Shown piece after piece: positions 48,183-64,000 of a DNA stretch of 64,000 bases. The DNA is from Patescibacteria group bacterium (GTDB taxonomy: Bacteria > Patescibacteriota > Microgenomatia > UBA1400 > PJMF01): positions 766,528 to 830,527 of the forward strand of contig BOKX01000001.1 of NCBI GenBank assembly GCA_016861205.1, read 5' to 3'. The translations under genes and the position numbers were made by a program. The notes below the pieces were generated by a model. That model worked only from the letters and a program-made list of their open reading frames with translations. It did no database searches and was not told the origin of the DNA. The first letter of the stretch is position 1. Each line of letters starts with the position of its first letter.

Positions 48183-48419
48183 TTAGGCTGCGAGTGATTT
48201 GGCCAATTGGCTCTTGAGACGAGCAGCTTTATTGCGATGCAAAAGGTGGTTTTTGACGCTTTTATCAATGCGTGAGAAAGCGGCAGATAAGGCCTCAGCA
48301 CTTGGCTTGGCTTTGGCTTGATCCAAAGCAGTTTTCAACTGAGCTTTAACTCGGCGGTTAGCCAGGGTTTTGCGTTGGCTGACACGAAGAGCTTTTTTGG
48401 CGTTAGATAGAATTGGCAT
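48183..48419 (-). CDS. rpsT: 30S ribosomal protein S20
   Basis: MPILSNAKKALRVSQRKTLANRRVKAQLKTAL. The ORF-track upstream extension (alternative start at 48572) is probably spurious. Confidence 0.8.
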   Translation of the reverse strand: MPILSNAKKALRVSQRKTLANRRVKAQLKTALDQAKAKPSAEALSAAFSRIDKSVKNHLLHRNKAARLKSQLAKSLAA

Positions 48420-48512
48420 ATATACTTGTGTTAAGGATCGGATTATAACCAATCTTGGACCCAGATTCAACCAGCGAAACCAAACGCACATCTGGCTACC
48501 ATACCAATACGT

Positions 48513-50204
48513 ATGATATTCACTTTGCCTAAAATTTTGAGCGCCAACGCCAAGTGGCTTGAGCAGCAGCAAAACACGATTTTGTCGGCGGCGACCATCA
48601 TCACGGTTTTTAACATCGTTTCTGCCTTGTCCGGTATCATTCGCAATCGTGTTTTTATCACGGTTTTCTACGATACAGCAATCGCTTCAAAAGAAGCTTT
48701 AGACGCCTTGTATGTAGCCTTTCAGGTACCGGACATGTTGTTCCAGTTGGTAGTGTTCGGCGCGATGTCGGCTGCTTTTGTACCTGTATTTATCAGCCAT
48801 CGCCGTCAGGATGAAAAAGTCGCCTTCCACATGACATCCATTGTTATGACCCTGTTATTGGGAGTGTTTGCTCTATTTTCAGCTGTCATCTTTTTCTTAG
48901 CTGAACCAATTACTCACTGGCGAACAGGCCAGCAGTTCACCGCCACCCAAATTGAAATTGTGACGAACTTGACTCGAGTTATGTTGGCTGGCCAGTTTTT
49001 CTTAGCTATCTCTAGTTTCTTTGGCAGCATTTTAAATTCATACCAACGATTTGTGATTCCAGCTCTCGCTCCAGTCCTGTATAATGTCGGCATTTTGGCT
49101 GGCGTGTACTTCTTTGCCCCTACACTGGGTATTTACTCAGCTGGTTTGGGCGTGGTGATTGGGGCAGCCATGCACATGCTGATCCAGCTCCCGTTGGTCC
49201 TTAAGCTCGGTTTCCGCTATCAACCATCATTCGATATTAAGTACCCTGGAGTTAAATCAATTTTGGCTCTGACACCGCCACGCATTTTAGCGGTCAGTGT
49301 TGGAGAAATTCGCGACCTTTTACTCGGTTTTTTCGCCACCTCGATCGGCAACTCCAGTATGTTGATCATGCAGTTAGCACTCAACATTATGACTGCGCCG
49401 ATTCGGTTTTTCGGGGTACCAATTAGTCAAGCTGCCTTGCCATTTTTGTCGGAGGAAGTGGCCAAAAATGATCAAACCAAATTCCGCGATCTGATTGTTC
49501 AATCTCTGCACCAGATTTCCTTTTTCATCTGGCCGGCATCTGTCTTGGTCTTGATTTTGCGCGTCCCAATTGTTCGTTTGCTGTTCGGCGCTGGAAACTT
49601 ACCTTGGACGACCACGGTCACTACGAGTAAAGTAGTCGCACTGATCGCACTCTCGATCGCCGCACAAGGTTTAGTGCAGCTGATCATCCGGGCTTTCTAC
49701 GCGCTTAAAGATACTCGGACGCCTCTGTTGGTCGCTCTGGTTGACATTGTGCTCTATCTGGTAATAGCCGGTTGGACCGTGTTTGGGCTGAACTGGGGCG
49801 TCTATGGTCTAGCTCTGGCAACTAGCTTAACAGCCTGGTTTGAACTGATCGTGATCATGGCCTGCCTGGATCAGAAAGTTCGCTGCTTCAGCACCAAACC
49901 ATTCATAGTGCCGCAGTTGAAAATTCTCGCCGCTAGTTTCTTCATGGCTGTTTTTCTGTATCTGCCATTCCGGATTCTGGACGAACTGGTTTTTGATACT
50001 TCACGCACCATCGAACTGATTGCTCTGACCATTACCACCAGTACCGTCGGCATGCTGGTGTACGTCTACTTCGCAGCTCTATTCGAAATCCGGGAGCTAC
50101 GATTCTTCACTAAAGTTATTACTTCCTTTGGTCCATGGCGAAAATCACTCGAGAAAAGTCCTGAAGTTCTCACCGAAAGCAGTGTGGAAGGTGACACGCT
50201 CTGA
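48513..50204 (+). CDS. murJ: lipid II flippase MurJ (MviN family)
   Basis: 563 aa, 14-TM MOP-superfamily pattern with a conserved N-terminal region. Confidence 0.85.
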   Translation: MIFTLPKILSANAKWLEQQQNTILSAATIITVFNIVSALSGIIRNRVFITVFYDTAIASKEALDALYVAFQVPDMLFQLVVFGAMSAAFVPVFISHRRQDEKVAFHMTSIVMTLLLGVFALFSAVIFFLAEPITHWRTGQQFTATQIEIVTNLTRVMLAGQFFLAISSFFGSILNSYQRFVIPALAPVLYNVGILAGVYFFAPTLGIYSAGLGVVIGAAMHMLIQLPLVLKLGFRYQPSFDIKYPGVKSILALTPPRILAVSVGEIRDLLLGFFATSIGNSSMLIMQLALNIMTAPIRFFGVPISQAALPFLSEEVAKNDQTKFRDLIVQSLHQISFFIWPASVLVLILRVPIVRLLFGAGNLPWTTTVTTSKVVALIALSIAAQGLVQLIIRAFYALKDTRTPLLVALVDIVLYLVIAGWTVFGLNWGVYGLALATSLTAWFELIVIMACLDQKVRCFSTKPFIVPQLKILAASFFMAVFLYLPFRILDELVFDTSRTIELIALTITTSTVGMLVYVYFAALFEIRELRFFTKVITSFGPWRKSLEKSPEVLTESSVEGDTL

Positions 50205-50225
50205 GGAAGTTTGTACAATGGGTGA

Positions 50226-50852
50226 GTGAAGAAGAAGACTGCCCAAGTTAACATCAACCTGGCGCCTAAAGATCCGTTTTTTGACACGACTCTGGGGAAG
50301 GTGTTGCGGTGGTCACTGACGGTCGGCCGCTACATCGTGATTTTCACAGAGTTAGTCGTTATTTTTAGTTTTGCCACCCGTTTCACTCTCGATAGACGCG
50401 TCACTGATTTAAACGACTCCATCTTTCAAAAGGAAAGCGTAATCAAGTCGTATGGGGACTTGGAAGATAAAGTTCGACTCACCCAGTTTCAAATCGAGCA
50501 GTACCAACAAGTCGAGCAACTCTCCAATCTTGCTGACATTTTCCCAATCTTGAGCGCCATTACACCCCAAGACGTTCGGCTGGATAATTTAGTTATTAAA
50601 CCAGCCTCGGTTAGTTTGGAAGGCACCACCCTAACTCAAAGTTCTTTTAACACTTTGATCAATAACATTCAACTTTCGGGCAAGTTCTTCAATGTCACCG
50701 TGGATCGAATCGAAAGTGATCAAGAAAAAAATCCGGGAATTCACTTTGTGTTGCATGCTGCAACACAGCCTCCAGAAGTCAAAACCACTGTTCAAAAAAC
50801 CGAAGCCAAAACCAGCGTACTAGATCGAACCCAAGGACTGGAAGGCATTTAA
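50226..50852 (+). CDS. type IV pilus assembly protein PilN-like
   Basis: N-terminal VNINLAPK (INLLP-like motif), single TM, coiled coil. Confidence 0.6.
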   Translation: MKKKTAQVNINLAPKDPFFDTTLGKVLRWSLTVGRYIVIFTELVVIFSFATRFTLDRRVTDLNDSIFQKESVIKSYGDLEDKVRLTQFQIEQYQQVEQLSNLADIFPILSAITPQDVRLDNLVIKPASVSLEGTTLTQSSFNTLINNIQLSGKFFNVTVDRIESDQEKNPGIHFVLHAATQPPEVKTTVQKTEAKTSVLDRTQGLEGI

Positions 50853-50859
50853 CAGACCT

Positions 50860-51480
50860 ATGGCTAATATTCGCACGCAACTATCTACTACCCTCAACCA
50901 GTTTTACCATCAGCCAGTGGCGAGAGTGTCACTGGAGCTGTTCTTGTCACTTGGCGCTGTCATGTTCTTTGCTGTTTTTGCCATCCGCCCCACCTTGCTG
51001 ACCATGTCTGATTTGGTCAAAGAAATCGAGGATAAAGAAAAATTGGACGGGCAGCTCGGTCAAAAAATCGCTGCACTCTACTCAGCCCAAAGCGAGTACT
51101 TAACACTTGAGCCACGGTTGCCACTTTTGAACGAGGCTATTCCAACCGCCCCCCAGCTCATCAGCTCGTTGAAGATAATTGAGAAGTTGGCGAGTGACCG
51201 GCGGCTGGTCATCTCATCACTCAACATCAACTCGATTCCCAACGAAACCTCTATAACCAACCTAACCACCCAAACAAAGCGCCAGGTAGTTTCAGTGACA
51301 GTGACAGTCATTGGTGACTATCCTGTCATTCGCGCTTTTGTGGAAGATCTTCGGCAGTTACGCCGAGTGATGATCATTGAAAGTATTGCTTTTAGTAATA
51401 GCGACAACGTCCGAGGTCAAACTCGAGGCTTGCGTGCCCAGATTCAAATCGGGCTACCATACTATGGAGCCGCCCAATGA
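50860..51480 (+). CDS. type IV pilus assembly protein PilO-like
   Basis: N-terminal TM + coiled coil + alpha/beta domain. Adjacent to pilN. Confidence 0.5.
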   Translation: MANIRTQLSTTLNQFYHQPVARVSLELFLSLGAVMFFAVFAIRPTLLTMSDLVKEIEDKEKLDGQLGQKIAALYSAQSEYLTLEPRLPLLNEAIPTAPQLISSLKIIEKLASDRRLVISSLNINSIPNETSITNLTTQTKRQVVSVTVTVIGDYPVIRAFVEDLRQLRRVMIIESIAFSNSDNVRGQTRGLRAQIQIGLPYYGAAQ

Positions 51481-51914
51481 ACACGTTCCAACGCCAACTA
51501 GCTAGTATTCGCCAACAACAACAGTTGTTGTACATCTTGATCTTCTCGTTCGCGACAATTTTGATTTGGGTCGCCATTGGTTTGTTTAGCTCTCAAAAGA
51601 AAACCGGTATCTCAGCAGAACTCCAAGAACTAGCCAAGCCGCTCAATCCCACCATTAACCGCCAGGTTTTTGACCAGCTCGACCGTGAGCGAACCTTCAC
51701 CGCAAGCGACTTGAGTAACTTTCCTATTTACAAAATCCTGCTCAGTAAAGAAGGCGCTGAACAAGTGGTCACACTCGATGTGAACGAGGCTCCCAGCGCT
51801 CCCGTTATCGTACCTCCCAGCCCGTCACCCACTCCCGTCAGTGTAGCCAGTGAGTCAGCCACCCCGAGTGCATCACCCACTCCCACTGCCACTTCATCTG
51901 GAGCCCAGCCGTAA
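51477..51914 (+). CDS. small membrane-anchored protein with P/S/T-rich tail (PilP-like position)
   Basis: Start overlaps the pilO stop. TM then a P/T-rich C-terminus. Confidence 0.4.
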   Translation: MNTFQRQLASIRQQQQLLYILIFSFATILIWVAIGLFSSQKKTGISAELQELAKPLNPTINRQVFDQLDRERTFTASDLSNFPIYKILLSKEGAEQVVTLDVNEAPSAPVIVPPSPSPTPVSVASESATPSASPTPTATSSGAQP

Positions 51915-51986
51915 CCTTCGGTGCTTTTTCGTGTTGTCACTTGAGACTTAATTCACTAAAGTTGATAGTAAGCGAGTTGGTCGCTT

Positions 51987-53600
51987 TTGTTTGCTATGCA
52001 ACCGATACCTGGTAAAAAGAGTCTGCTACGTCGTCAAATCCCCACATTAATCGGTTTGGGTATTCTGGTAGTTGGTTTAGTGGCCGGAATGCTCTTTATC
52101 GGCCAGGGCGCGGGCGTTTTTGCCCCTCGCGCTACGCCGCAAACCACCCCCAAACTCATCAAGATTACAAATGTTAGTGACACTAGCTTTACTGCTTCAT
52201 TTTTAACCGACGAAGCCACCGTTGGCTTTGTGAAGTACGGTACCGAACCTACTCGGCTCAACGCACAAGCTAGCGACGATCGTGATCAACTATCAGGAAC
52301 GGTCGGCAAGTATAGTTTGCACCACATCACTGTTCGTGGTTTGGACCCTGCCACCACCTACTACTTCACACTTGGCACAGCTAGCACAGCCGATTTTGAT
52401 AACAACGGCTCTCCGTTTACTGTTACCACCGCCAAACGAGGTGGAACACCATCGGCAGCCAAAACTAGTTATGGTAGCGTCGTCACCAGTAGTGGTACAC
52501 CGGCTGAAGGTAGTGTTGTCTACGTCACTATTAACGGTGTAGGCGAGTTGTCATCTTTGGTCAAAAACTCTGGAAGTTGGGCTGTGCCACTTTCGAATGC
52601 ACGTACCAGCGACGGGGCTAACTACGCCAAAATCGAGGACACCGATAGTATGGGCTTGATGGTTCAAGGACCAAGCGCTGCTCAAACCAGCCAGTTAACG
52701 GTCACTGTTAAAGACTCACAACCTGTCGCTGCCATTACTCTAGGTCAAAATGGCGCGGCTATGGCAGCCAAAATGACCGACGATTCAGGAACTGGTGGTC
52801 AAAGTAGCGAAACCTCCGACAGTACGACTCAAGCTACTGACTCCGCAACTACCGGCTTGACAGCAACCTCAACCGCCACAGGTTCTGGTGCGACTGGCGG
52901 CTTGAACACATTGCTAAGTCAAAGCGATTTATCAGCTAGTGGCAGTGCCACTACTGCTACAAGTAGTGCTTCACCTTCTGCCGTGGTGAACTTGGAAAGC
53001 ACCAAACCACAGGTGGTTACAACAACCCAACCAGTGATTACTGGTAAAGCTGCTCCGAACGTTCGGGTCAGGATCGAAGTTCATTCAGACAACCAGATCA
53101 ACTACGAACTGGTGGCAGACGCCAACGGTGGCTTCACACTTGACGTAGCCAAACTCTCTGAGCAACTTGAACCAGGCGAGCATACAGTCACCTATGCCTA
53201 CACAGATCCAACCACAGGACAAGAAGTAGTCAAAACCCAAACGTTCACGGTACAAGCGCCCACGAATCAGCTCGCTCAAGCGACGACCACAAAAACGACA
53301 GGCAGTTCAAGCACCAAGAGTAGCTCACCATCGCCGACGCCATTTAGCTCATCAAATCCATTCCCAGTCGGTGGTGCCAGTGGCAGCGCCACACCCAAGC
53401 CATCTCCAAGCAGTAGTCCGGCCGCTAGCGGCTCGTCCCGCGTCGCCTATCCGTCGACAAGTAGCGGCATTCCAGTCTCTGGAACCCTCAGCACCACCAT
53501 CTTCTTAGTGGCCGGTGGCTTAGTCTTGATGCTCGCTGGTACCTGGAGTTTCTGGATGGCTAAACTTTGGACTACAGATGACGGTGATCCAGAAGATTAA
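51987..53600 (+). CDS. secreted fibronectin type III-domain protein with S/T-rich region and C-terminal TM anchor
   Basis: KITNVSDTSFTASF...HHITVRGLDPATTYYFTL is an FN3 signature. C-terminal IFLVAGGLVLMLAG TM followed by an acidic tail. Confidence 0.6.
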   Translation: MFAMQPIPGKKSLLRRQIPTLIGLGILVVGLVAGMLFIGQGAGVFAPRATPQTTPKLIKITNVSDTSFTASFLTDEATVGFVKYGTEPTRLNAQASDDRDQLSGTVGKYSLHHITVRGLDPATTYYFTLGTASTADFDNNGSPFTVTTAKRGGTPSAAKTSYGSVVTSSGTPAEGSVVYVTINGVGELSSLVKNSGSWAVPLSNARTSDGANYAKIEDTDSMGLMVQGPSAAQTSQLTVTVKDSQPVAAITLGQNGAAMAAKMTDDSGTGGQSSETSDSTTQATDSATTGLTATSTATGSGATGGLNTLLSQSDLSASGSATTATSSASPSAVVNLESTKPQVVTTTQPVITGKAAPNVRVRIEVHSDNQINYELVADANGGFTLDVAKLSEQLEPGEHTVTYAYTDPTTGQEVVKTQTFTVQAPTNQLAQATTTKTTGSSSTKSSSPSPTPFSSSNPFPVGGASGSATPKPSPSSSPAASGSSRVAYPSTSSGIPVSGTLSTTIFLVAGGLVLMLAGTWSFWMAKLWTTDDGDPED

Positions 53601-53698: not shown

Positions 53699-55492
53699 AT
53701 GATTGCTTCATCCCCAAAGTTCCGTAAAAAAGCCTCACTCACCCAACTTCCGATCAGTATGGTGGTTGGACTAGTTGTGGTAGCCATCATGGTGGTGGGG
53801 GCCGTAGCCGCTATTTACTTGTCAAATCAATCAACAGAACTTCGCCAGCAAGCCGCTGGTGAGCGAGCCGTGGTTTGTGCTCCCGGGACTTGGTCTTCGT
53901 GTGGTTCAAATGCCACACCCACCTGTCCCACTGGCCAAGCTCGACGTTGTAGCACCAACAATACCTGGGGAAACTGTCAAACACCTCCCGCCGGCACGTG
54001 CGGCGGTAGTGTGCAACGCTGCGGTGTCTGTAACAACAGTGGCGACTGTGCGGCTGGTCTAACTTGCCGGGTTGTTGCTGCAGGATATCGTTGTGTGACC
54101 AGCACTGATACCAACTCAGCCTGTCCAAATGACGGCGGCACTGGCCAGCCTATCCCAAATTCATATGGTTCATGTAGCAATGGCTGTTGTACGGTGACAC
54201 CGGCCGGCTCAGCTGCAGGCTGCTACGTTGTTGGGTACCAATGTCCAGGTGGTGAATTACCTTGTGGTCAAAATGGCAGTACTTCCAATGGCACAATGTG
54301 TAATGCGGCTGGCTACTGTGGCAGTCAGCAAGTCGATCTACGTTGTCCGGGCTACTCAACAGCAGGCTCTTTCCAAACCTCTAGCAAACCCATGAACTGT
54401 GGTAGCACGCCAACGAACCCACCAACGACCCCTTCAACACCTCCAGGTACTGGTGGCGCGCCAACCCCAGTTCCGACCCAACCCCCAACACCAATTAGTT
54501 GTGCTGGCTTGGAGATTCTCGACCCTGTTACCTTACAAAAGTTACCCACCAAACCAACTACAGGTCAGTCTGTTCGATTCCGCTGTATTGGGGCGGCCGG
54601 ATCACAACCTGATTACTACTTCTTTGCCTACACGGATGTTCTCGGTCAGGCTATGAAGCTGATTTACCAAGGTCCCAGTGACCTGACATTCCCCATCACC
54701 GTCCAACCCTACATGGTTGTGCAGTGTAACCCTTGCCGTGGCAGCGAGTGTTCTTCTGGAGAAAGCGTCAATCAAAACTGTACCTTCATCAATCAGGCTC
54801 CACCAAGCCCTACACCTAGTCCCTCACCGACACCAGTTGCAGTTGCTTGCTACAGCTTGACACAGTCAACTGTTGCCACGAATCAGAATGGTACCGTTAC
54901 CTATCGATTTACTTGTGGCGGTGCCCCTGGAAGCAACTACTATTTCTTCGCCTACCAAAGCAGCCCAACGGGACCAATGCAACCATTCGCTCAGGGTCCA
55001 GCGAACACAGCAGATCTGACAGTGGCAACCAACTCATACTTAGTTGTGCAGTGTAACCCTTGCGTCGGTAGTACCTGTTCTAGCAGTGCCTCAGTCAATA
55101 ACAACTGTACCTATCGTCAGGCGGCTATAACCAGTCCAACCCCTGTAGCCTCTGCAGTGTTGCCATCACCAACTCCAGCCATTACCCCTGGACCGCAATG
55201 TTTAGGCATCACTTTGTCGAACACTAATGCACAGGTCGGTGATGTGGTTACTGCTACCTGTACCCAAGTTCCAGGTGCCGCCCGCTACATTAGCCGTGTT
55301 ATGTTACCAAGCGGTCAGATCCGGGATCTAAACATGACTGGTCGAGTATCAGAGCAAGTACAAATCACTAGTGCCGGTACATACGTTTTCCAGTGTCAGA
55401 TTTGTACCGACAACACGACTGCCAGTTGTTTCGCCTACGAACCAACTTCAGTCATATATGAAGACCCAATTGCACCACCAGGAACCAATTAG
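53699..55492 (+). CDS. cysteine-rich secreted mosaic protein (paralog 1)
   Basis: N-terminal leader/TM ...ELRQQAAG, a Cys-dense region, P/T linkers, and three copies of a ~85-aa domain (VRFRC.GAAGS..YYFFAY...VQCNPC.GS.CSS..SVN.NCT). Confidence 0.6.
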   Translation: MIASSPKFRKKASLTQLPISMVVGLVVVAIMVVGAVAAIYLSNQSTELRQQAAGERAVVCAPGTWSSCGSNATPTCPTGQARRCSTNNTWGNCQTPPAGTCGGSVQRCGVCNNSGDCAAGLTCRVVAAGYRCVTSTDTNSACPNDGGTGQPIPNSYGSCSNGCCTVTPAGSAAGCYVVGYQCPGGELPCGQNGSTSNGTMCNAAGYCGSQQVDLRCPGYSTAGSFQTSSKPMNCGSTPTNPPTTPSTPPGTGGAPTPVPTQPPTPISCAGLEILDPVTLQKLPTKPTTGQSVRFRCIGAAGSQPDYYFFAYTDVLGQAMKLIYQGPSDLTFPITVQPYMVVQCNPCRGSECSSGESVNQNCTFINQAPPSPTPSPSPTPVAVACYSLTQSTVATNQNGTVTYRFTCGGAPGSNYYFFAYQSSPTGPMQPFAQGPANTADLTVATNSYLVVQCNPCVGSTCSSSASVNNNCTYRQAAITSPTPVASAVLPSPTPAITPGPQCLGITLSNTNAQVGDVVTATCTQVPGAARYISRVMLPSGQIRDLNMTGRVSEQVQITSAGTYVFQCQICTDNTTASCFAYEPTSVIYEDPIAPPGTN

Positions 55493-55517
55493 CAGCCAGC
55501 ACTCAGCGGAATAACGT

Positions 55518-56468
55518 ATGACGACCACACCTATCAAACAACCAATCCGAGCCACAAAGCTGTTTGGCTTTGATCGCAAAGCAGTCTTAACTGTGTTGGC
55601 GTTGGTGGTGTTCGTAATTGCCGGCCTCAGTGGTGTCTTAATTGCCCAACGTCAGCGTCAGATCAGTGGCCCAGTTGCTCCCACGGCTCCAGGTTCACGC
55701 CCACAGGCAGCGTTTCAACAGTTACATACTTGCACTGTGGCACTCACCGTTCCCAACCCCATCCCGACGCCCACACCGTTTATTAGTCCGTCACCAAGCT
55801 TAGTTCCGACACCTACTCCATTTGTTAGCCCATCACCTAGCTTAGTCCCAACTCCCATCCCGACACCCACTCCCACCACCTACTCATGTAACAGTTCGTG
55901 TACCACGAACGCACAGTGTCAGACTGCGAACGCCGCTTACATTTGTTCCAGTGGTAAATGCCGCCTCAACGGCAATGTCGGCAGCACTACCTGTACCTAT
56001 AAATGTAACAGTAGTTGCGTCAGTGACGCGGAGTGTCAAACTGTCAATCCAGACTACATCTGTTCCAGTGGCAAATGTCGTATGAAGTACAATCCCAATG
56101 CCACCAACTGTAGTTATAGTTGCCCAGTCATCAATGCAAACCCCAAACCACCAGTTACCACCTGTGCGCCGGCCGCCACAGAAACGGGCACCATCACTTG
56201 GTACTGGACACCGATCAGTGGGCACAACAGCACCACCCAGTATCAAATCCAGGTGCTGAACAGCAACAATCAGGTCGTCGGCGAAGATAAGGGCTGCAAA
56301 CCCGGTGACGAGTACTACAACTGTTACCAAGGCCACTGTAGCTACACCAGCTATCACTTGCCTGGTACATATAAGGCCCGAATAAAAGCCTGTACCAGCA
56401 GCTGTCCGTCAACAACCACGCAGGGATTCAGAACCACAGTCAGCAAGACGATTGGTGTCTGCCAATAA
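55518..56468 (+). CDS. cysteine-rich secreted mosaic protein (paralog 2)
   Basis: Leader ...PQAAFQQ, PTPTP linkers, two repeats CNSSCx3AxCQTxNxxYICSSGKCR. Confidence 0.6.
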   Translation: MTTTPIKQPIRATKLFGFDRKAVLTVLALVVFVIAGLSGVLIAQRQRQISGPVAPTAPGSRPQAAFQQLHTCTVALTVPNPIPTPTPFISPSPSLVPTPTPFVSPSPSLVPTPIPTPTPTTYSCNSSCTTNAQCQTANAAYICSSGKCRLNGNVGSTTCTYKCNSSCVSDAECQTVNPDYICSSGKCRMKYNPNATNCSYSCPVINANPKPPVTTCAPAATETGTITWYWTPISGHNSTTQYQIQVLNSNNQVVGEDKGCKPGDEYYNCYQGHCSYTSYHLPGTYKARIKACTSSCPSTTTQGFRTTVSKTIGVCQ

Positions 56469-56493
56469 ATCCCAAAAATGAGCCAAAAGTTCC

Positions 56494-56526
56494 AGAGCCA
56501 GCGTCAGCTGGCTCTGTTAGTTCTAG
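56494..56526 (+). terminator. candidate intrinsic terminator/attenuator between array genes
   Basis: AGAGCCAGC-GTCA-GCTGGCTCT then GTTAGTTCTAG. Confidence 0.4.
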
Positions 56527-56687
56527 ACTGGCGATGAGCGCACTTGGCTTCGGCTGAGCCTCTCCCGATGCTTTACCGAATAAATCGACTATTGACGAGT
56601 GGTCAACAAAATCGCTATCCTGATGATTAGGCTTGTCACGAGTGGTTCTGTCGTTGGAACACCGCAGACAGCTCTACAAAACGAATC

Positions 56688-58760
56688 ATGATTAACGCTA
56701 CCCCTTCACTGCCAACTGCTTCATCACAACCTCCAAAAGACCCGACTTTTGGCGCTAAGCCGGCTCCAATGGCCATGAAACCAAAAGCCAAAACCAACTG
56801 GAGAATGATTCTGGGACTCGGTGTTTTGTTACTGGTGATCGTCGGTGGCGCCGCTGGGTTCTACTTGACCCAAATGGGTGGACTGGATGTGCGACAACAG
56901 GCAGCAGTAACCAATCCATGTAGTGATATTGCGGCAACGTGTTTAGTTGGTTCAGCTAGCTGTCCTGCCGGCCAGAATAAAGTAGGTACTTGTTCAGATC
57001 GAGGCGAACAGGGCTCTTGCTGTAAACAGCCGGGCGGCACTGTAGCCTGTGCTGACTCAGCTGCTACTTGCAATGTTGGCGCGACAAGTTGTCCAAGTGG
57101 TCAATTAAGAACCGGTTCATGTTCAGATCGTGGTGACCAGGGATCATGCTGCAAACCAGCTAATGTGTCACAGCCATGTTCAGATTCTACTGCCACTTGT
57201 ACTCTTGGTGCCTGTGGAAGCGGCCAAGTTAGTGTAGGATCATGTTCTGATCGAGGTGAACAAGGCTCTTGCTGCAAAACGGCACCATCATGTTATGACT
57301 TGAACCAAGGTTGTATCCGAATTACTTCTGCAGAGTGCAGCAATGGTGTTGGTGCAGGAAAGTACACAGACCTTGCTCAATGCCAAGCAGCACGTTGTAC
57401 TCCACAACAGTTGGTTGCAATCAATTGTCCAACCGGCGAGGAACCTTATTGTAATAATGGGACGCCTGCTTGCCGATTGAGCGCCTCAACCAATCCAAAT
57501 CCAGTTGCTCTACAAGGCTGTAACCAAGCGTGCAATAGTAGTGCATATTGTACCTGTCCCGCTGGTTGCGCAGTTCAAACTCAAATTTCTATTGGTCAAA
57601 ACTGTGGCGGCAATACTACACCTACTTTAACTGCCTGTAATCAAACCTGTAACAGTCAAGCGGGTTGCAACTGTCCTTCTGGCTGTGCTCAAAGCTTCGC
57701 TCAAAATGGAGGCACCTGTGGTGGTAACACCACTCCAACTCTGACTAGCTGTACCCAAACCTGTACTGCTCAGGCCGGTTGCAACTGTCCATCTGGCTGT
57801 TCACGAACCTTTGCTAACAATGGCCAAACTTGTGGCAGTGCTGGCACCGGCGGCACCATCACCTACTGTCCGAACTCGCCTACCACCCCAGCTCGCCGAT
57901 ATGTTAAGTTCACCTGTCCGAACGGCTGTCAGTTAACCACCGAACAGGGTGTAACTGCCTGGCGCTGCTATGAGAGACGCCAAGACTCCACCACTCCTCT
58001 GACCCTGAACGGTGAGTGTGGTCAGGTCGACGTTTTATCAGGCGATACTGATGCAACCTATTGTGGCTACACTGAGTACACCTGTGATCAGGCTCGCTGC
58101 CAGCCTCAGCAGACCCCGCCTCCAAGTACCCCTCCAGCTCAGGCCAGTTGTGTCCGCTTAGAGTTGCTAGATGAAACCGGTAGTACTGTCCTGAATCAAA
58201 CTCCAGCCAGTGGCAATGTTCGCTTCCGCTGTGTGGGTGCCCCAGGTAGCAACTACTACTTCTTTACCGCCCGTAGCAACCAGACTGGTCCACTTAACCT
58301 AATCTACCAGGGTGACAGTAGCATGACGTTCCCAATTGCTATTACCGATTACTTGCACGTTCAATGTAACCCATGTATCGGCACATCATGTGCGAGTGCC
58401 GAGAACGTTAACACCAGTTGTAACTTCGAGTACACCCGTCAGATTCCACCCGGACCACAATGTCTGGCTCTGTGGATGGCCAGTACCGAGAATCCAACTG
58501 TGTCTCTGACCAACCCACACGTCGGTGACAGTATCTTGCTCGGTTGTGGCCAAGTTCAGGGCGCAGCTCGCTACGTCTTCCGAGTGACCGAGCCAGATGG
58601 TAACGTCGTGAACCTGCAGCCGCTCGATGTGACTGCTGCGCCACGCACCTCACAGGCTTACACTATTACTAAGCAAGGCCGACACTATGCGCAATGTCAG
58701 ATCTGTACCGGCCAAGCAGACAGCACCTGTTTCGCGTACGAAACCTTACCTAGCAACTAA
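56688..58760 (+). CDS. cysteine-rich secreted mosaic protein (paralog 3)
   Basis: Leader ...DVRQQAAV. 3x ~42-aa repeat (C.D...TC.VG..SCP.GQ...GSCSDRGEQGSCCK), 3x ~38-aa repeat (CNQTCNSQAGCNCPSGC...CGGNTTPTLT), then YYFF/VQCNPC domain copies. Confidence 0.6.
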   Translation: MINATPSLPTASSQPPKDPTFGAKPAPMAMKPKAKTNWRMILGLGVLLLVIVGGAAGFYLTQMGGLDVRQQAAVTNPCSDIAATCLVGSASCPAGQNKVGTCSDRGEQGSCCKQPGGTVACADSAATCNVGATSCPSGQLRTGSCSDRGDQGSCCKPANVSQPCSDSTATCTLGACGSGQVSVGSCSDRGEQGSCCKTAPSCYDLNQGCIRITSAECSNGVGAGKYTDLAQCQAARCTPQQLVAINCPTGEEPYCNNGTPACRLSASTNPNPVALQGCNQACNSSAYCTCPAGCAVQTQISIGQNCGGNTTPTLTACNQTCNSQAGCNCPSGCAQSFAQNGGTCGGNTTPTLTSCTQTCTAQAGCNCPSGCSRTFANNGQTCGSAGTGGTITYCPNSPTTPARRYVKFTCPNGCQLTTEQGVTAWRCYERRQDSTTPLTLNGECGQVDVLSGDTDATYCGYTEYTCDQARCQPQQTPPPSTPPAQASCVRLELLDETGSTVLNQTPASGNVRFRCVGAPGSNYYFFTARSNQTGPLNLIYQGDSSMTFPIAITDYLHVQCNPCIGTSCASAENVNTSCNFEYTRQIPPGPQCLALWMASTENPTVSLTNPHVGDSILLGCGQVQGAARYVFRVTEPDGNVVNLQPLDVTAAPRTSQAYTITKQGRHYAQCQICTGQADSTCFAYETLPSN

Positions 58761-58774
58761 TATAAACACACTGT

Positions 58775-59941
58775 ATGACCGACAACTTTAAACCAACCAG
58801 CTTCATCAAACAGCCACCGGCGGGAGTACCAGCTCCCAATACTCCGGCTGTTGGTTTAAACCCGGCTCCAGATGCTGGTGTACCAATGAGCACAGGTCCA
58901 GCCCCTAAATCGCCTAAGAAAATCTTTGGTATGGAAGCCAAGAGTCTGGCAGCCGTACTTGGCTTGACCTTGTTCTTCGTAGTTGCCATGGGCGGGGTTG
59001 CAATTTCACTGCGCCAACGAGTAGCTCAGGGGCCAGCCGCCCCCACCGCTCCTCAATCCCGACCTCAGGCAGATGTCGGTCAGATCGGCAGCTGTTCATT
59101 GTTCTTCGACGCCGAGCCAGTCGCCTCACCATACTGTAGTAGTATCAGTATTGTCGGCAACGCTGATCCAAACACAGCGACTAGCTTAACGTTCAGTTGT
59201 GCCGGCGCTCCTGGCAGTGACTACTACTTCTTCTCGTATCGAACAAGCCCAACTGGAGCTCTGCAGCTGCTGAGTTCTGGAACTGAGGCCACTTCATCTG
59301 CCATTAGTATGGCAGGTGTGAACTACTTGCACGTTCAATGTAACCCACACATTGGAGCTAACGGCTCGAGTGCCAGCAGTGTTAACGAGAACTGTAACTA
59401 TGAATTCACCCGCGGTGCCACCCCGACACCAAGTCCAAGTGTCACGCCTACTCCTACACCCACACCAACGGTGAGTCCGAGTGTGACACCCACACCGACC
59501 CCAACCCCCAGCAGTACACCTGGTGTAACTCCGTCACCCACCTACAGTTGCAACAGTAGCTGTTCGACCAATGCTCAATGTGCCACAGCCAACAGCAACT
59601 TCATCTGTTCCAATGGCTCGTGCCGGCTGAGTTCGAACCCAAGCAGCACCACTTGTAGTACGGTCGGCTGTAACGAGGTCTGTTCGTCCAACTCAGACTG
59701 TTCGAACACGTCACACATCTGTAGTGGAGGCCGCTGCCGCTTAGACAGTAATCCAGACAGTAGTACGTGTACACCTCCATCTACTACCACGACTACCACT
59801 GTGGCTCAACAAACTGGCACCCCATCTCAGCCAACCTTGCCAGCCGAGCTGCCACAAACTGGGGCTGAGGACTTTGGAACTTGGCTCAAGGCTGGTGTCG
59901 TCATCCTCTTGGGAGGCGCGGCTCTGCTACTGTTCCTATAA
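58775..59941 (+). CDS. cysteine-rich surface protein with C-terminal LPXTG-like sorting signal (paralog 4)
   Basis: Leader ...PQSRPQA, a YYFF/VQCNPH domain, PTPTP linkers, 2x CNSSC...ICS.G.CRL repeats. C-terminal LPQTG + hydrophobic segment. Confidence 0.6.
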   Translation: MTDNFKPTSFIKQPPAGVPAPNTPAVGLNPAPDAGVPMSTGPAPKSPKKIFGMEAKSLAAVLGLTLFFVVAMGGVAISLRQRVAQGPAAPTAPQSRPQADVGQIGSCSLFFDAEPVASPYCSSISIVGNADPNTATSLTFSCAGAPGSDYYFFSYRTSPTGALQLLSSGTEATSSAISMAGVNYLHVQCNPHIGANGSSASSVNENCNYEFTRGATPTPSPSVTPTPTPTPTVSPSVTPTPTPTPSSTPGVTPSPTYSCNSSCSTNAQCATANSNFICSNGSCRLSSNPSSTTCSTVGCNEVCSSNSDCSNTSHICSGGRCRLDSNPDSSTCTPPSTTTTTTVAQQTGTPSQPTLPAELPQTGAEDFGTWLKAGVVILLGGAALLLFL

Positions 59942-59956: not shown

Positions 59957-60886
59957 ATGCCCAAATCAACCCCGCTGACAAATCGATACAGACGGCGACG
60001 TATCTCGGGCTTGTTAACTGGTGGCCTGATCACGCTGCTAGTGTTGGTCGGCGGTGCAATTGGCTATTCGCAGGTTTTCAGGAACCAAGACTTAGCTTCT
60101 CAAGCTAGTGTGGCTGACGGAAATAGTCGAGCTTGCACAGCAGGCACTGTCGGGACAGAGTATGAGGGCACTCAAGGCAGCAACGGCTGCCAAAGCAATG
60201 AAGTTCCCGTGTACCGTTGTGTCAGGGACACTCATCGATCGGGCAACACCACGACATATACATACCACTGGCAACGAATCCGCTGTTCATATCGATCTGG
60301 CGCCACTACCTGTAACGGAACAACTGGCCGAGCGCAGGGTTGCCCTTGTGCTGATGATAGTCAGTGCAGTACACATAACTGTGCAGTGACGAGCTCCAGT
60401 GGTCCCAAAACGTGTGCCCCCTTTGACCCAGGTCCATTAACTCGCCCTGGTCAGCCTGGGCCTGGTGGCCAACCAGCTCCTGCTCAACCGACTCCAACAA
60501 GTGTTTCACAGCCGAATCCTGGCACACCGGGGCAACCTACTAACCCAACACAACCTGTCGTTCCAACGTGTACCGTAGTACTCAGTAAAAAGGATGCTAA
60601 GGGCAAAATGCAGCCTGTGCCAACTGCGCAACTCAAAAAAGATGATGTTGTGTACCTGAGCTGCCCCACCACAGGTCAGCCCACAACTACCTTCTGGGGT
60701 TTCTATCGGATAAATGCTGCTGGGACCGGTTACGACTTTGTGGCAGGTGGCGATACCGTTGGCAACCCACCATCAACAGTTATTCCCATTGTTCTGAAAA
60801 CTGGTGATCACTTTGAGTGCGCCCCCATGACCTTAGTCAATAACATTTCGAGTTATCATGCCAAATGTACGGCAGATATTAGATAA
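59957..60886 (+). CDS. cysteine-rich secreted protein (paralog 5)
   Basis: Leader RRRRISGLLTGGLITLLVLVGGAIGYSQVFRNQDLASQAS, a P/G/Q linker, and a C-terminal ~110-aa domain ending GDHFECAP. Confidence 0.55.
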   Translation: MPKSTPLTNRYRRRRISGLLTGGLITLLVLVGGAIGYSQVFRNQDLASQASVADGNSRACTAGTVGTEYEGTQGSNGCQSNEVPVYRCVRDTHRSGNTTTYTYHWQRIRCSYRSGATTCNGTTGRAQGCPCADDSQCSTHNCAVTSSSGPKTCAPFDPGPLTRPGQPGPGGQPAPAQPTPTSVSQPNPGTPGQPTNPTQPVVPTCTVVLSKKDAKGKMQPVPTAQLKKDDVVYLSCPTTGQPTTTFWGFYRINAAGTGYDFVAGGDTVGNPPSTVIPIVLKTGDHFECAPMTLVNNISSYHAKCTADIR

Positions 60887-60895
60887 GGATGGACC

Positions 60896-61933
60896 ATGTT
60901 CAGCACCAAACCACTCCCTAATAAACGAGCCCAACGTCGTCGATTGTCAGCAGTCATCACTGGTGGACTGATCATGACGCTGATGGTGGTCGGTGGCGTG
61001 ATTGGTTTCTCAGGTTTATTCCAGTCTCAAGATCTTGCTTCACAGGCAGCAGGTAGTATGTCGTGTGGTGGCCGCAGTGCTGGCTCTACTTGGAGAGGGG
61101 CAACCGGAACTGAGAGCTGTTCAAGCAATCAGCAACCCGCTTTTACCTGTGTGGAAGTCACTATCACAGGCAGTAAAAATCAAAAGACTAAGGTCTTGCA
61201 AGCTTTTAAAACTGGCTGTGTCACAACTGCTCCGTTAGTGACCGGCGCTCAGACCCAACAGAAGTGTGCCGATGCGCAGTCAACCTGTAACATTGGCAGT
61301 ACCACTTGTGGGAGCGCTTTTACCAAAACGGGTTCCTGCAGTGATCGACAAGACCAAGGAGTCTGCTGCAAAAAAACCGTCACTGCTAACCCCTTGACCT
61401 CATTGGCTAATCTGACCAAACCAGCCCCAGCCGCCAACACTCAGCCAGCCCAAACCGCACCGGCAACCAATCCAAGCCAAGGGTCAGCACCACAGGCAAA
61501 TCAGGGTACTGGTGGTCAAGCTCCAGCTGCACCTCTAGCCCCACAGCCTGGTGTTGAGCCAACCTGTGAAGTGACGTTGAACACCAAGACTATGACCGAT
61601 CAGCAGATCGCTGCCCAGGGCAAGCCGTTGACTGATGATGTTTTGGCCAAGTACATCACGCCGATTACTAGTTACAGCTTCGGCAATCAAGTGGCCTTCC
61701 ACTGTAATGTCACCAGCGGTGGACCAGTGGTAAACGTCTGGTGGGCCCTGTATCGAGTTGAGAACAACACGTACGTCGCCAAACTGAGTGGCAGTAAAAA
61801 TGCCAACAGCAGTTTGCTCGATCAGAGCTTGGTAAACTTGCAACCAGGTGACCACTTCGAGTGTGTGCCGACCTACATTGGCCCAAATGGTGTGGAGACC
61901 GAGGGCAAGAAGTGCAAACAAGTTTACTGGTAA
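60896..61933 (+). CDS. cysteine-rich secreted protein (paralog 6)
   Basis: Leader paralogous to the 59957 gene, one SDRQDQGVCCK module, a P/A/Q linker, and a C-terminal domain with GDHFECVP. Confidence 0.55.
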   Translation: MFSTKPLPNKRAQRRRLSAVITGGLIMTLMVVGGVIGFSGLFQSQDLASQAAGSMSCGGRSAGSTWRGATGTESCSSNQQPAFTCVEVTITGSKNQKTKVLQAFKTGCVTTAPLVTGAQTQQKCADAQSTCNIGSTTCGSAFTKTGSCSDRQDQGVCCKKTVTANPLTSLANLTKPAPAANTQPAQTAPATNPSQGSAPQANQGTGGQAPAAPLAPQPGVEPTCEVTLNTKTMTDQQIAAQGKPLTDDVLAKYITPITSYSFGNQVAFHCNVTSGGPVVNVWWALYRVENNTYVAKLSGSKNANSSLLDQSLVNLQPGDHFECVPTYIGPNGVETEGKKCKQVYW

Positions 61934-61992: not shown

Positions 61993-62066
61993 GCGCCTAT
62001 AGCTCAATTGGTTAGAGCGTCAAGCTTATACCTTGATGGTTCTAGGTTCGAGTCCTAGTGGGCGCA
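61993..62066 (+). tRNA. tRNA-Ile with anticodon UAU (AUA-decoding)
   Basis: GCGCCTA-TA-GCTC-AATTGGTTA-GAGC-G-TCAAG-CTTATAC-CTTGA-TGGTT-CTAGG-TTCGAGT-CCTAG-TGGGCGC-A. The anticodon loop reads U33-UAU-A37. Confidence 0.75.
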
Positions 62067-62075
62067 CTTGGATTT

Positions 62076-63098: not shown

Positions 63099-64000
63099 CT
63101 AGTCCCAAATATGCAAGTCGAGTAAATCAATAATGGGACCGAGAACGGCAATTGGCTGCTTGACTGTTCGGTCAGCCAATACTCGAGTAAAATGTTCGTT
63201 CAATCGTTGCTTGTACGACTGTTGATAGTAAGGACTCAGGTTTGGGAACAGGTACTCAATTTCAGCATCGGTGATCGGCACAAAGACGCCACAGTGTTTA
63301 CTCAAGTCGAAATCACTCCAACCTTCACCTGGTTGGAGCTGCGGGAATCTGCCAAACAATGACTCAAACAGCGAGACTCCTAAACTATAGGCATCTCCCC
63401 ACTTGCTATAGGTTTCGGCTCTTGGTGCCGTATTAAAGTACTTCTCAGGCAACAGGTAATACGCTGTACCAACCCAGTTATTACTATCAGGGACCGGAAA
63501 CAAGGCCTCATTCGGATTTTCGCCACCAAAAAGTGTGAAATTAAAATCATAAATCCGCACATGGCACGGGTTCATAGCTAAAAAGTTGTCTGGCTTTACA
63601 TCATTGTGACTATCAACGTAATGATAAAAGTGGATTAAGCTACGCACTGCATTTACCCAGATTTTTGCCCACTCACCAAGATTTTCCTGACGAAGTGGCT
63701 CACTGCCCATGACATACTCACCGGTTGAACTGGTCAATGTGTAACTTTCGAGCGACTGCCCTTCTAAATATGACAGGATAATAAAACCATCGTCACTGAC
63801 TCCATATAAGTTGGGTGTAAAAACTTCATTTTCAGGCAGGGCCAAATACACCATCAGTTCACGCAGTAAAAACATGTCGACCCAAGCTTTGTGCTGAGCA
63901 GCATTGATCTCTTTGATAAGGCTTGGGATCCATTGGTCAAGCTCGTTTCTGACATAGGCGGGGGTCAGCTTGGCCAAGCCGCCGAACAAAGCGTTTAGAT
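63099..64000 (-). CDS. eukaryotic-like protein kinase domain protein (5'-truncated by window end)
   Basis: HNDVKPDNFL (HxDxKPxN catalytic loop), DFNFT (DFG-like), GTAYYLLPE (APE-like). The frame stays open upstream to the window edge; the track's M at 63989 is a TTG. Confidence 0.6.
   Translation of the reverse strand, partial: LNALFGGLAKLTPAYVRNELDQWIPSLIKEINAAQHKAWVDMFLLRELMVYLALPENEVFTPNLYGVSDDGFIILSYLEGQSLESYTLTSSTGEYVMGSEPLRQENLGEWAKIWVNAVRSLIHFYHYVDSHNDVKPDNFLAMNPCHVRIYDFNFTLFGGENPNEALFPVPDSNNWVGTAYYLLPEKYFNTAPRAETYSKWGDAYSLGVSLFESLFGRFPQLQPGEGWSDFDLSKHCGVFVPITDAEIEYLFPNLSPYYQQSYKQRLNEHFTRVLADRTVKQPIAVLGPIIDLLDLHIWD

What the first reader, a model, noticed from the sequence alone, without database searches (positions are those of the whole stretch)
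54480..58740. Novel ~85-aa 'YYFF...VQCNPC' domain repeated in three array proteins
A recurring pattern (V/L)RFRC.GA.GS..YYF(F/S)..(Y/R)......L.YQG......FPI......(L/V)VQCNP(C/H).G..C.S...VN.NC.(F/Y) occurs three times in the 53699 protein (the third copy is divergent: ARYISRV...QCQICT...CFAYE). It occurs twice in 56688 (the second copy is divergent) and once in 58775. The spacing of aromatic and Cys residues is conserved. I do not recognise it as a known domain.
Basis: seen in the sequence. Interest (0 to 1): 0.6.

Follow-up and report, generated by a model that had tools for sequence, protein, structure and literature searches.

The report
Disulfide-stapled Ig-like surface-protein domain family
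The repeated 'YYFF...VQCNPC' stretch is a real module of about 95 residues with a cysteine-stapled immunoglobulin/fibronectin-III-like fold, found in cell-surface proteins of ultra-small Patescibacteria; Pfam and NCBIfam have no model for it, its fold is ordinary, and its ligand is unknown.

Summary
Four strong copies (A1, A2, C1, D1) share 41-48% identity (E 1e-17 to 1e-30). The two "divergent" copies (A3, C2) are true homologues (hhalign 96.8%; an independent profile finds every copy).

The family has about 200 representatives (clusters at 50% identity). Locus titles that name a plausible source say Patescibacteria.
It sits at the extreme C-terminus of cysteine-rich proteins anchored by an N-terminal helix.
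- The YYFF form (type 1) is a small subfamily with a longer FG loop closed by an extra disulfide.

The domain lies at the end of the protein far from the anchor. Its BC and FG loops are conserved. Type 2 is the most conserved part of each protein. Its gene almost always lies beside a gene for an LPXTG-type wall-anchored protein.

Best reading: an extracellular recognition or docking module, ligand unknown. Verdict: a new sequence family of a known fold, of moderate interest.

The parts
53699..55492 (+). Gene A (597 aa). N-terminal TM anchor, a cysteine-rich centre, then three domain copies (type 1, type 1, type 2).
   Evidence: ORF list. TM at residues 19-39. No Pfam or NCBIfam hit.
53837..53854 (+). 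Post-TM motif ELRQQA of protein A. The equivalent DVRQQA of protein C is at 56886-56903.
   Evidence: [DE][ILV]RQQA just after the TM helix occurs in 60 of 137 full-length family proteins.
54494..54796 (+). Copy A1, type 1 (YYFF...VQCNPC; 6 Cys).
54842..55123 (+). Copy A2, type 1.
55193..55447 (+). Copy A3, type 2 (GAARY.SRV...FQCQICT...C.AYE; 5 Cys), the C-terminal cap of protein A.
   Evidence: It scores 104.8 bits with the independent type-2 profile.
56688..58760 (+). Gene C (690 aa). N-terminal TM anchor, a large cysteine-rich centre, then a type 1 and a type 2 copy.
   Evidence: A mosaic allele, P0006, has a replaced centre and identical termini.
58143..58436 (+). Copy C1, type 1. This copy was modelled.
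58455..58748 (+). Copy C2, type 2, the C-terminal cap of protein C. This copy was modelled.
58775..59941 (+). Gene D (388 aa). TM or signal sequence, one type 1 copy near the N-terminus, a P/T linker, two 6-Cys 'CNSSC' modules, and an LPQTG sorting signal.
   Evidence: (TIGR01167 at 15.6 bits against a cut-off of 15.9).
59129..59410 (+). Copy D1, type 1, lacking cysteines 4 and 5 (NPH...ANG).
   Evidence: The joint loss implies that C4 and C5 pair with each other.
59849..59938 (+). LPQTG motif plus hydrophobic tail of D, a sortase-type C-terminal anchor.
60563..60883 (+). E1, the C-terminal domain of protein E. A possible distant copy with the same 4-Cys skeleton as D1.
   Evidence: BLASTP against A1 gives E 0.014. 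Not supported by hhalign or by the independent profile.
61559..61930 (+). F1, the C-terminal domain of protein F. A possible distant copy.
   Evidence: BLASTP against D1 gives E 1.7e-4 and against E1 gives 1.3e-6. Not supported by hhalign or the independent profile.

Best explanation
The repeat is an extracellular beta-sandwich module of about 95 residues with FN3/Ig-like topology (strands A, B, C, C', E, F, G), held together by disulfides. It belongs to a sequence family seen so far only in surface proteins of Patescibacteria (CPR).

Shown:
- The fold, at model level.
- Homology between the two variants.
- The family's distribution, protein architecture and gene context.

Inferred disulfide map for type 1 (residue numbers are those of copy C1):
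- Cys30 in strand B pairs with Cys75 in strand F, the classical Ig pair.
- Cys3 at the start of strand A pairs with Cys93 at the start of strand G.
- Cys78 pairs with Cys83 and closes the enlarged FG loop.

Type 2 is the ancestral form and is always the C-terminal cap of N-terminally anchored proteins. It has only five conserved cysteines, so one is probably unpaired.

Proposed function (inferred): a recognition or docking head displayed at the end of the protein far from its anchor. It would use the pole formed by the conserved BC and FG loops, together with the outer face of the C'CFG sheet.
- In type 1 this face is predicted to carry two exposed aromatic residues from the YYFF strand, plus His, Gln and Asn. 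That composition resembles a glycan-binding or hydrophobic contact surface.
- In type 2 the same face is basic and polar (R.I.R and Q.Q).

The ligand is unknown. Candidates are the wall-anchored LPXTG partner proteins encoded next door, or a conserved structure on a host cell surface. Type 1 copies are lineage-specific duplicates that add further binding or extension units.
For: Fold:
- AF2 models of C1 and C2 have pLDDT 83.7 and 84.0 and pTM 0.76 and 0.73.
- The family profile weakly matches the 'VGDRVTITC' B strand of antibody VL domains.

Family:
- 202 representatives at E <= 1e-3 among 1.84 billion proteins.
- Five of the ten genome loci are titled Patescibacteria or Paceibacterota. The other five carry implausible titles.

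Extracellular and oxidised:
- Every protein has an N-terminal TM helix or signal sequence, and D has an LPQTG anchor.
- The window encodes a VKOR disulfide-forming enzyme.

Position at the anchor-distal end:
- The domain lies a median of 2 residues from the C-terminus in N-anchored proteins, and within 15 residues in 125 of 149.
- It lies near the N-terminus in proteins with a C-terminal LPXTG-type signal or TM tail: D, P0017, P0131, P0144 and P0014.
- A minimal member, P0023, is only a TM helix, the DIRQQA motif and the domain. That argues for an autonomous function rather than a tag.

Functional loops:
- The BC loop (CG.V.GA in type 2, G..G in type 1) and the FG loop (ICTG, or CNPC.G..C.SA.SVN.NC) are as conserved as the core strands.

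Selection:
- Against the orthologous array in L003, type-2 copies are 78-87% identical, type-1 copies 55-72%, and central regions 49-56%.

Disulfide inference:
- D1 has lost C4 and C5 together.

Context:
- The domain gene is directly flanked by an LPX[TSA]G-type gene in 19 of 27 related loci. Of the other eight, all but L029 are cut by a contig end beside the domain gene.
Against: - No ligand or binding experiment exists.
- FN3/Ig modules are often inert spacers.
The disulfide map and the claim that two YYFF aromatics are exposed rest on strand alternation and Ig-fold logic, not on measured distances.
- In the mosaic allele P0006 the central cysteine-rich region has been swapped while C1 and C2 stay 100% identical. 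Strain-level specificity may therefore reside in the centre, not in this domain. This fits a constant docking role better than a variable adhesin tip.
- In an FN3 fold the BC/FG pole is on the N-terminal side, facing back toward the linker.
- Structural similarity to known FN3 domains is only generic. Foldseek gives no hit at E <= 1e-3, and the best TM-score is 0.50-0.58.
Confidence: 0.5

Rival explanations
1. C-terminal docking, anchoring or assembly module. The type-2 domain is a constant 'handle'. It would tether the free C-terminal end of the N-anchored protein to the co-encoded LPXTG wall protein or to the wall or S-layer. Its unpaired conserved cysteine might form an intermolecular disulfide. 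Type-1 copies would be derived duplicates.
For: - Type 2 is confined to the extreme C-terminus.
- It is the best-conserved part of the proteins and is unchanged in a mosaic allele whose centre is replaced.
- It has five conserved cysteines, an odd number.
- Its gene is adjacent to an LPX[TSA]G-type gene in 19 of 27 loci.
- Across the family, the ends (TM helix plus RQQA motif, and the C-terminal domain) are conserved while the middle varies.
Against: - Type 1 copies are internal or N-terminal, so the fold is not tied to the C-terminus.
- Minimal proteins made only of an anchor and the domain (P0023) would be a handle with no cargo.
- The numbers of type-2 and LPXTG genes per locus are not 1:1.
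- No interaction was tested.
- No match to known sorting domains. TIGR04183 matches 1 of 59 domain sequences at E 0.064.
Confidence: 0.25
2. Passive structural spacer. The domain would be a rigid, disulfide-hardened FN3-like unit that only extends or stabilises the stalk of surface proteins, like the FN3-like modules of glycoside hydrolases.
For: - The fold match is generic FN3. The best Foldseek hit is an Fn3-like protein of C. thermocellum.
- Copies occur in tandem, separated by P/T linkers.
Against: - Loop residues (BC and FG) are as conserved as the core.
- The position is terminal rather than repeated along a stalk. 136 of 149 proteins carry a single copy.
- It is more conserved than the rest of the protein.
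Confidence: 0.15
3. Pilus subunit. The array would encode Ig-like pilins, either sortase-polymerised Gram-positive-type pili or the CPR 'Pam' donor-strand-exchange pili, and the domain would be the pilin body.
For: - The fold is Ig-like.
- D carries an LPXTG signal.
- The array lies downstream of pilN and pilO in the window, L006 and L007.
- CPR-specific Ig-like Pam pilins exist (bioRxiv 10.64898/2026.03.03.709456).
Against: - Pam pilins are two-domain proteins with a donated linker strand and an ATP-synthase neighbourhood. None of that is seen here.
- A and C lack LPXTG and keep an N-terminal TM helix.
- No sortase-like TLxTC motif was found in the window (regex only).
- The pilNO linkage holds in only three genomes. 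Other lineages have different neighbours.
- NCBIfam pilin and isopeptide models do not match.
Confidence: 0.05
4. Not a real domain: a chance or compositional similarity in low-complexity, Cys/Pro/Thr-rich sequence.
For: The proteins are compositionally biased, with P/T linkers and 4-9% Cys.
Against: - Pairwise E-values reach 1e-30.
- An independent profile recovers every copy.
- The models are confident.
- About 200 relatives exist elsewhere.
Confidence: 0.01

Closest known systems
Fibronectin type III (FN3) modules, including bacterial Fn3-like modules (e.g. PDB 3mpc, C. thermocellum; CbhA 3pe9)
   Same: - Seven-strand A-B-E / C'-C-F-G beta-sandwich of about 90-100 residues.
- Extracellular, tandem, joined by linkers.
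   Different: - Sequence identity of only 6-16%.
- PF00041 does not match the window proteins.
- FN3 domains normally have no disulfides. This family has 2-3 conserved ones and a long conserved FG loop.
Immunoglobulin-superfamily domains (V-set, I-set, Ig_3)
   Same: - Cysteines in strands B and F at the positions of the canonical Ig disulfide.
- A B-strand motif G[DQ].V.F.C that resembles 'GDRVTITC'.
- Weak profile hits to VL domains, to Ig_3 in 8 of 59 family domain sequences and to multi-Ig proteins.
   Different: - All hits are below family thresholds.
- The Y-to-C spacing in strand F differs (Y...QC against Y.C).
- There are extra A-G and FG-loop cysteines.
- The topology scores best as FN3.
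T9SS C-terminal sorting domain (Por_Secre_tail, TIGR04183)
   Same: A beta-sandwich of about 80-100 residues at the extreme C-terminus of otherwise very diverse secreted proteins (type 2 only).
   Different: - No model match (1 of 59 domain sequences at E 0.064).
- The window organism appears to be a Patescibacterium, which from general knowledge lacks an outer membrane and T9SS.
- Type 1 copies are internal or N-terminal.
Ig-like modules of LPXTG-anchored Gram-positive adhesins and pilins (MSCRAMM DEv-IgG, CnaB)
   Same: - Ig-like modules on wall-anchored surface proteins.
- Protein D has the classic order: signal, N-terminal module, stalk, LPXTG.
   Different: - No sequence match.
- Stabilised by disulfides rather than isopeptide or ester bonds.
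- Most family members are N-terminally anchored and have no LPXTG.
Pam pilins of CPR bacteria (PamA/PamB, bioRxiv 10.64898/2026.03.03.709456)
   Same: CPR-specific, extracellular, Ig-like folds with paired cysteines.
   Different: - Pam pilins have a nine-strand N-terminal domain plus a truncated Ig-like C-terminal domain completed by donor-strand exchange.
- Their gene neighbourhood is different, with ATP synthase, CorB and MFS genes.

Membership tests
FN3 fold / Pfam fn3 (PF00041) | Seven-strand beta-sandwich with FN3 strand order. | tested here: met
FN3 fold / Pfam fn3 (PF00041) | Sequence match to the Pfam model at the gathering threshold. | tested here: not met
   No Pfam family at E <= 1 for proteins A-E. 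fn3 is not among the 25 families shown (of 41 found) for the 59 domain sequences.
Immunoglobulin superfamily (Ig_3, V-set, I-set) | B-F intersheet cysteine pair and Ig sequence signature scoring above the model threshold. | tested here: inconclusive
   Cys in strand B and Cys in strand F are invariant. Pairing is inferred, not measured. Ig_3 matches 8 of 59 domain sequences, best E 0.0036. VL chains match at per-domain i-E about 0.04.
PKD domain (PF00801) | Match to the Pfam PKD model. | tested here: not met
   Only 8 of 59 family domain sequences match, best E 6.9e-5. The window proteins give no hit at all.
T9SS C-terminal sorting domain (TIGR04183) | Match to the model, plus presence of T9SS machinery. 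| tested here: not met
   One of 59 domain sequences at E 0.064. T9SS genes were not searched for beyond the window.
LPXTG sortase substrates (TIGR01167 / PF00746). This applies to protein D, not to the domain. | [quoted passage not shown] | tested here: inconclusive
   LPQTG plus a hydrophobic tail is present, but the protein ends ...LLLFL with no basic tail. TIGR01167 scores 15.6 bits against a cut-off of 15.9. Partner proteins in other loci carry the same signal. No sortase gene was found in the window (motif search only).
Isopeptide or ester-bonded adhesin Ig-like domains (CnaB, strep_pil_rpt) | Model match and a Lys-Asn/Asp or Thr-Gln cross-link triad. | tested here: not met
   TIGR03786 matches 1 of 59 domain sequences at E 0.025. 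Cross-link residues could not be assessed without coordinates.
Pam pilins (CPR donor-strand-exchange pili) | Two-domain pilin with a donated linker strand, and a conserved pam operon beside ATP synthase genes. | tested here: not met
   Architecture and neighbourhood differ. Direct sequence comparison was not possible because the PamA and PamB sequences are not held.

The most novel reading that the evidence does not exclude
The domain may be the signature C-terminal head of an undescribed surface-protein system specific to Patescibacteria. The system would consist of:
- An N-terminal TM helix followed by a [DE][ILV]RQQA motif.
- A swappable cysteine-rich cassette.
- An Ig-like cap carrying one unpaired, conserved cysteine in or near the FG loop.
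- A gene position always beside LPX[TSA]G wall-anchored partners, and in some lineages directly downstream of pilN-pilO.

The unpaired cysteine would form a covalent (disulfide) link to the partner or to a host-surface target. The system would then be a covalent docking or attachment device for episymbiont-host contact. In the YYFF type-1 variant this cysteine is capped by an extra loop cysteine.
Probability: 0.12. Interest if true: 0.7.

Novelty: new member of a known kind. Interest (0 to 1): 0.35.

Why it matters
- Patescibacteria (CPR) are obligate epibionts, and how they attach to their hosts is largely unknown. Most of their surface proteins have no annotation.
- This work defines a family of about 200 representatives that Pfam and NCBIfam do not cover. 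It gives the family's fold, its cysteine framework and two variants.
- It also records a very consistent protein architecture and gene context: an N-terminal anchor motif, a variable cysteine-rich centre, a conserved C-terminal Ig-like cap, and an adjacent LPXTG-type partner.
- That makes a large set of 'dark' CPR proteins annotatable and points to concrete binding experiments.
- The domain itself has an ordinary fold, so the surprise is modest unless the covalent-docking reading proves true.

Tried and rejected
1. The word-indexed protein search with the four-copy alignment found nothing. The whole protein A and the exhaustive profile search were needed to find relatives.
2. The AFDB Foldseek library was unavailable. 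Only PDB comparisons were made.
3. E1 and F1 as further copies: they share the 4-Cys skeleton, but hhalign gives probability below 1% and the independent profile gives no hit. They are left as candidates.
4. Dockerin fusion in type-1 proteins P0018, P0034 and P0066: only sub-threshold matches to half a dockerin. This was not relied on.
5. Pam pili: rejected on architecture and gene context.
6. Phage origin or sharing: no relatives in IMG/VR for either variant.
7. Type 1 in JGI metagenomes: the pattern scan found none. Type 2 was found at 17 loci.
8. A universal link to type IV pili: the pilN-pilO synteny holds only for the window, L006 and L007/L017. Other lineages have different neighbours.
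9. Sortase in the window: no TLxTC motif. This is a weak test.
10. Literature searches for the RQQA motif and for CPR cysteine-rich or LPXTG surface proteins gave nothing relevant.
11. Model coordinates are not exposed by the tools, so Cys-Cys distances could not be measured.


Full report
**Setting**

The finding lies in a + strand run of genes with very short gaps:
- murJ (48513-50204)
- pilN (50226-50852)
- pilO (50860-51480)
- a 145-aa membrane protein
- a cysteine-free FN3-type protein (51987-53600; Pur_ac_phosph_N, E 4e-10)
- six cysteine-rich proteins, here called A to F:
  - A: 53699-55492
  - B: 55518-56468
  - C: 56688-58760
  - D: 58775-59941
  - E: 59957-60886
  - F: 60896-61933
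- a tRNA-Ile(TAT) at 61993-62067, which ends the run

Each of A-F has one N-terminal hydrophobic helix and 4-9% cysteine. None has a Pfam hit at E <= 1 apart from noise. D ends in LPQTG followed by a hydrophobic tail. The window comes from a 1.15-Mb NCBI contig, and the sources give these proteins no name.

Yes. Delimited copies:

| Copy | Coordinates |
|---|---|
| A1 | 54494-54796 |
| A2 | 54842-55123 |
| A3 | 55193-55447 |
| C1 | 58143-58436 |
| C2 | 58455-58748 |
| D1 | 59129-59410 |

- A1, A2, C1 and D1 are 41-48% identical pairwise (E 4.5e-17 to 1.7e-30). A3 and C2 are 42% identical (E 2e-22).
- A profile of the four strong copies, run over all 750 six-frame ORFs of the window, scores them at 138-147 bits. 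It aligns A3 and C2 in register but only weakly (i-E 0.18 and 0.08).
- Homology of the 'divergent' copies was settled in two ways. hhalign between a 15-sequence type-1 alignment and a 20-sequence type-2 alignment gives probability 96.8% and E 2.9e-10 over 90 columns. A type-2 profile built from 122 domains of other organisms, with no window-derived sequence, recovers A1, A2, C1 and D1 at i-E 1e-7 to 8e-7.
- DNA identity between copies is 44-58%, so the duplications are old.
- The unit is about 95-100 residues.
- The C-terminal domains of E and F share D1's four-cysteine skeleton and align in register. Neither hhalign (below 1%) nor the independent profile supports homology. They remain candidates only.

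**What is it structurally?**

AlphaFold2 models are confident for both variants.
- C1, from the 8-row alignment of window copies: pLDDT 83.7, pTM 0.76, seven beta strands.
- C2, from a 17-row alignment: pLDDT 84.0, pTM 0.73.

At sequence level nothing passes threshold.
- Pfam and NCBIfam give nothing for the window proteins.
- For 59 family domain sequences they give only scattered sub-threshold hits to Ig-like families: ChitinaseA_N in 12 members, PKD in 8, Ig_3 in 8, Y_Y_Y in 7. NCBIfam gives nothing better than E 0.017.
- The family profile weakly matches the 'VGDRVTITC' B strand of antibody light chains.

The fold is therefore the common FN3/Ig-like sandwich, while Pfam and NCBIfam hold no model for the sequence family.

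**The wider family**

An exhaustive profile search of 1.84 billion representative proteins found 202 with E <= 1e-3, of which 35 have E <= 1e-10. A few of these are genuine multi-Ig proteins picked up by the B-strand signature.

- Of 149 proteins with a clear domain, 136 have a single copy.
- The domain ends a median of 2 residues from the C-terminus, and within 15 residues in 125 of 149.
I call it type 2: GP.CL.I...GD.V.FTCG.V.GA..Y.FRV..PDG...L.ATG..S...TI...G.Y.AQC.ICTG...C...E.
- The YYFF...VQCNPC form (type 1) accounts for about 18 of 145 domain segments.
- Most family proteins have no Pfam domain at all.
- Of the ten loci fetched from genome assemblies, five are titled Patescibacteria or Paceibacterota MAGs. 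The other five are titled 'uncultured Pseudomonadales' or 'Vitreimonas', which looks like mislabelling.
- There are 17 further metagenome loci and none in viral contigs.

**Cysteine framework**

- Type 2 has five conserved cysteines. Type 1 has six.
- D1 and its cluster representative P0013 have lost the fourth and fifth together (NPC...SC becomes NPH...NG) while keeping the other four. So C4 and C5 very probably pair with each other and close the FG loop.
- Combining the DSSP strand assignments with Ig/FN3 geometry, I infer C30-C75 (strands B and F) and C3-C93 (start of A to start of G) in copy C1.
- Type 2 then has an odd, probably unpaired, conserved cysteine at the same pole.
- A VKOR disulfide-forming enzyme is encoded at 34554-35015 (E 3.8e-22). 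That is consistent with oxidative folding outside the cell.

**Where the conservation lies**

Besides the core strands (V.F.C; Y.F; QC), the BC loop and the FG loop are among the most conserved segments in both types. In FN3 folds these loops sit together at one pole.

In strand C, the second Y and the second F of YYFF align with the conserved Y and F of type 2, and I infer that these two are core residues. By strand alternation, the first Y and first F would then be solvent-exposed next to His, Gln and Asn of strand F (inference). The equivalent face of type 2 carries R, I and R, plus Q and Q.

**Architecture and context**

- In N-anchored proteins (A, C and most of the family) the domain is the C-terminal end. 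In proteins with a C-terminal LPXTG-type signal or TM tail (D, P0017, P0131, P0144, P0014) it is near the N-terminus. In both cases it is at the anchor-distal end.
- A minimal member, P0023, is just a TM helix, the DIRQQA motif and the domain.
- The array order A-B-C-D is conserved in L003. There, type-2 copies are 78-87% identical to the window, type-1 copies 55-72%, and central regions 49-56% with indels.
- P0006 is a mosaic allele of C. Residues 1-60 and the segment spanning C1 and C2 are identical, but the cysteine-rich centre is replaced.
- In 19 of 27 related loci the domain gene directly abuts a gene ending in ELP[QAEV][TS]G..., a hydrophobic tail and LLLL. Of the other eight loci, all but L029 are cut by a contig end beside the domain gene.
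- The pilN-pilO-p145-FN3 block upstream is shared only with L006 and L007/L017.

**Interpretation**

The best-supported reading is an extracellular, disulfide-stapled FN3/Ig-like recognition or docking module displayed at the distal end of Patescibacteria surface proteins. Type 1 is a lineage-specific duplicate with an enlarged, disulfide-closed FG loop.

The main rival is a refinement rather than a contradiction. Type 2 may be a constant handle that docks onto the adjacent LPXTG partner, possibly through its odd cysteine. The following favour that version:
- the strong conservation of type 2
- its strict C-terminal position
- the swapped centre in P0006
- the obligate gene pairing

The autonomous minimal proteins and the non-terminal type-1 copies argue against a mere sorting tag. 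A purely passive spacer is less likely because the loops are conserved. Pilin roles are unlikely on architecture and context.

**Verdict**

- It is a new member (a new sequence family) of a known kind.
- Interest is moderate. The value lies in annotating CPR surface proteins and in the testable docking and odd-cysteine hypothesis.

Noticed in passing
window 53837-53854 (A), 56886-56903 (C); also B, D, E, F N-termini: A conserved motif follows the N-terminal TM helix. [DE][ILV]RQQA occurs in A, C and 60 of 137 full-length family proteins. E and F have QDLASQA. B, D and LPXTG-type relatives have RQ...P.APTAP.S[RK]P.A. It is not a classical AxA signal-peptidase site and may be an undescribed CPR sorting or processing signal. 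No literature match was found.
   Followed up: partly
protein C (56688-58760) versus P0006: P0006 is a mosaic allele of C. Residues 1-60 and the C-terminal part (C1 plus C2) are 100% identical, while the roughly 300-residue cysteine-rich centre is replaced by unrelated cysteine-rich sequence. This suggests cassette-like variation of the central region between strains.
   Followed up: partly
window 59849-59938 and loci L004-L028: A gene for a protein ending in ELP[QAEVR][TSA]G(S/A)ED..W.KAG.G..G....LLLL lies directly beside the domain gene in 19 of 27 related loci. This is an LPXTG-type signal without a basic tail. No sortase-like TLxTC motif was found in the window.
   Followed up: partly
window 46338-53600; L006 579-7911; L007 2-6924: The block lepA / murJ-pilN-pilO-145-aa protein-FN3 protein is conserved immediately upstream of the array in two other genomes, at 50-82% identity. 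No pilM or pilQ was seen in this stretch.
   Followed up: partly
window 34554-35015 (+): A VKOR-family protein (E 3.8e-22, CLYC motif) is encoded here. It is a disulfide-bond-forming enzyme, which fits the many cysteine-rich secreted proteins.
   Followed up: yes
window 61993-62067 (+): A tRNA-Ile with anticodon TAT lies immediately after the last array gene. This is an uncommon tRNA species in bacteria.
   Followed up: no
window 57048-57278, 57519-57800 (C); 55887-56006 (B); 59549-59671 (D): Other internal cysteine-rich repeats occur in the array. C has at least two C..S.ATC...C...CSDRG[DE]QGSCCK units, with similar stretches seen by eye earlier in C and in F. C has three CNQ.CNS.A.C.CP.GC units. 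B and D each carry 6-Cys 'CNSSC.TNAQC...C...C[RK]L' modules, which are shared with the LPXTG partner proteins of other loci.
   Followed up: partly
L004 10471-13567; L009 12758-15791; L010 5939-9084; L011 13160-16218; L012 9500-12521: In several other lineages the domain/LPXTG gene pair is followed by a conserved trio and a 777-aa protein on the opposite strand. The trio resembles a MacA/HlyD-like protein, an ABC ATPase and an FtsX/MacB-type permease. That assignment was made by eye from the sequences and was not tested.
   Followed up: no
L003, L004, L007, L008, L010 record titles: MAG records carrying this CPR-type locus are titled 'uncultured Pseudomonadales bacterium' or 'Vitreimonas sp.' (1.41-Mb contig). 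Their genes are 55-82% identical to the window's housekeeping genes. This is probably taxonomic mislabelling in the source records.
   Followed up: no
window 31175-33781, 37486-38703, 38803-41163, 63099-63989: Two class-A penicillin-binding proteins, a GH18 glycosidase and a Ser/Thr protein kinase flank the locus. The neighbourhood is rich in cell-envelope genes.
   Followed up: no
P0018, P0034, P0066 (relatives, not in window): Some type-1-bearing proteins end in a single dockerin-like calcium loop (DLNKDGKVDINDY). Dockerin_1 matches are sub-threshold for P0018 and P0066 (E 0.024 and 0.0014), and P0034 gives no Dockerin_1 hit.
   Followed up: partly
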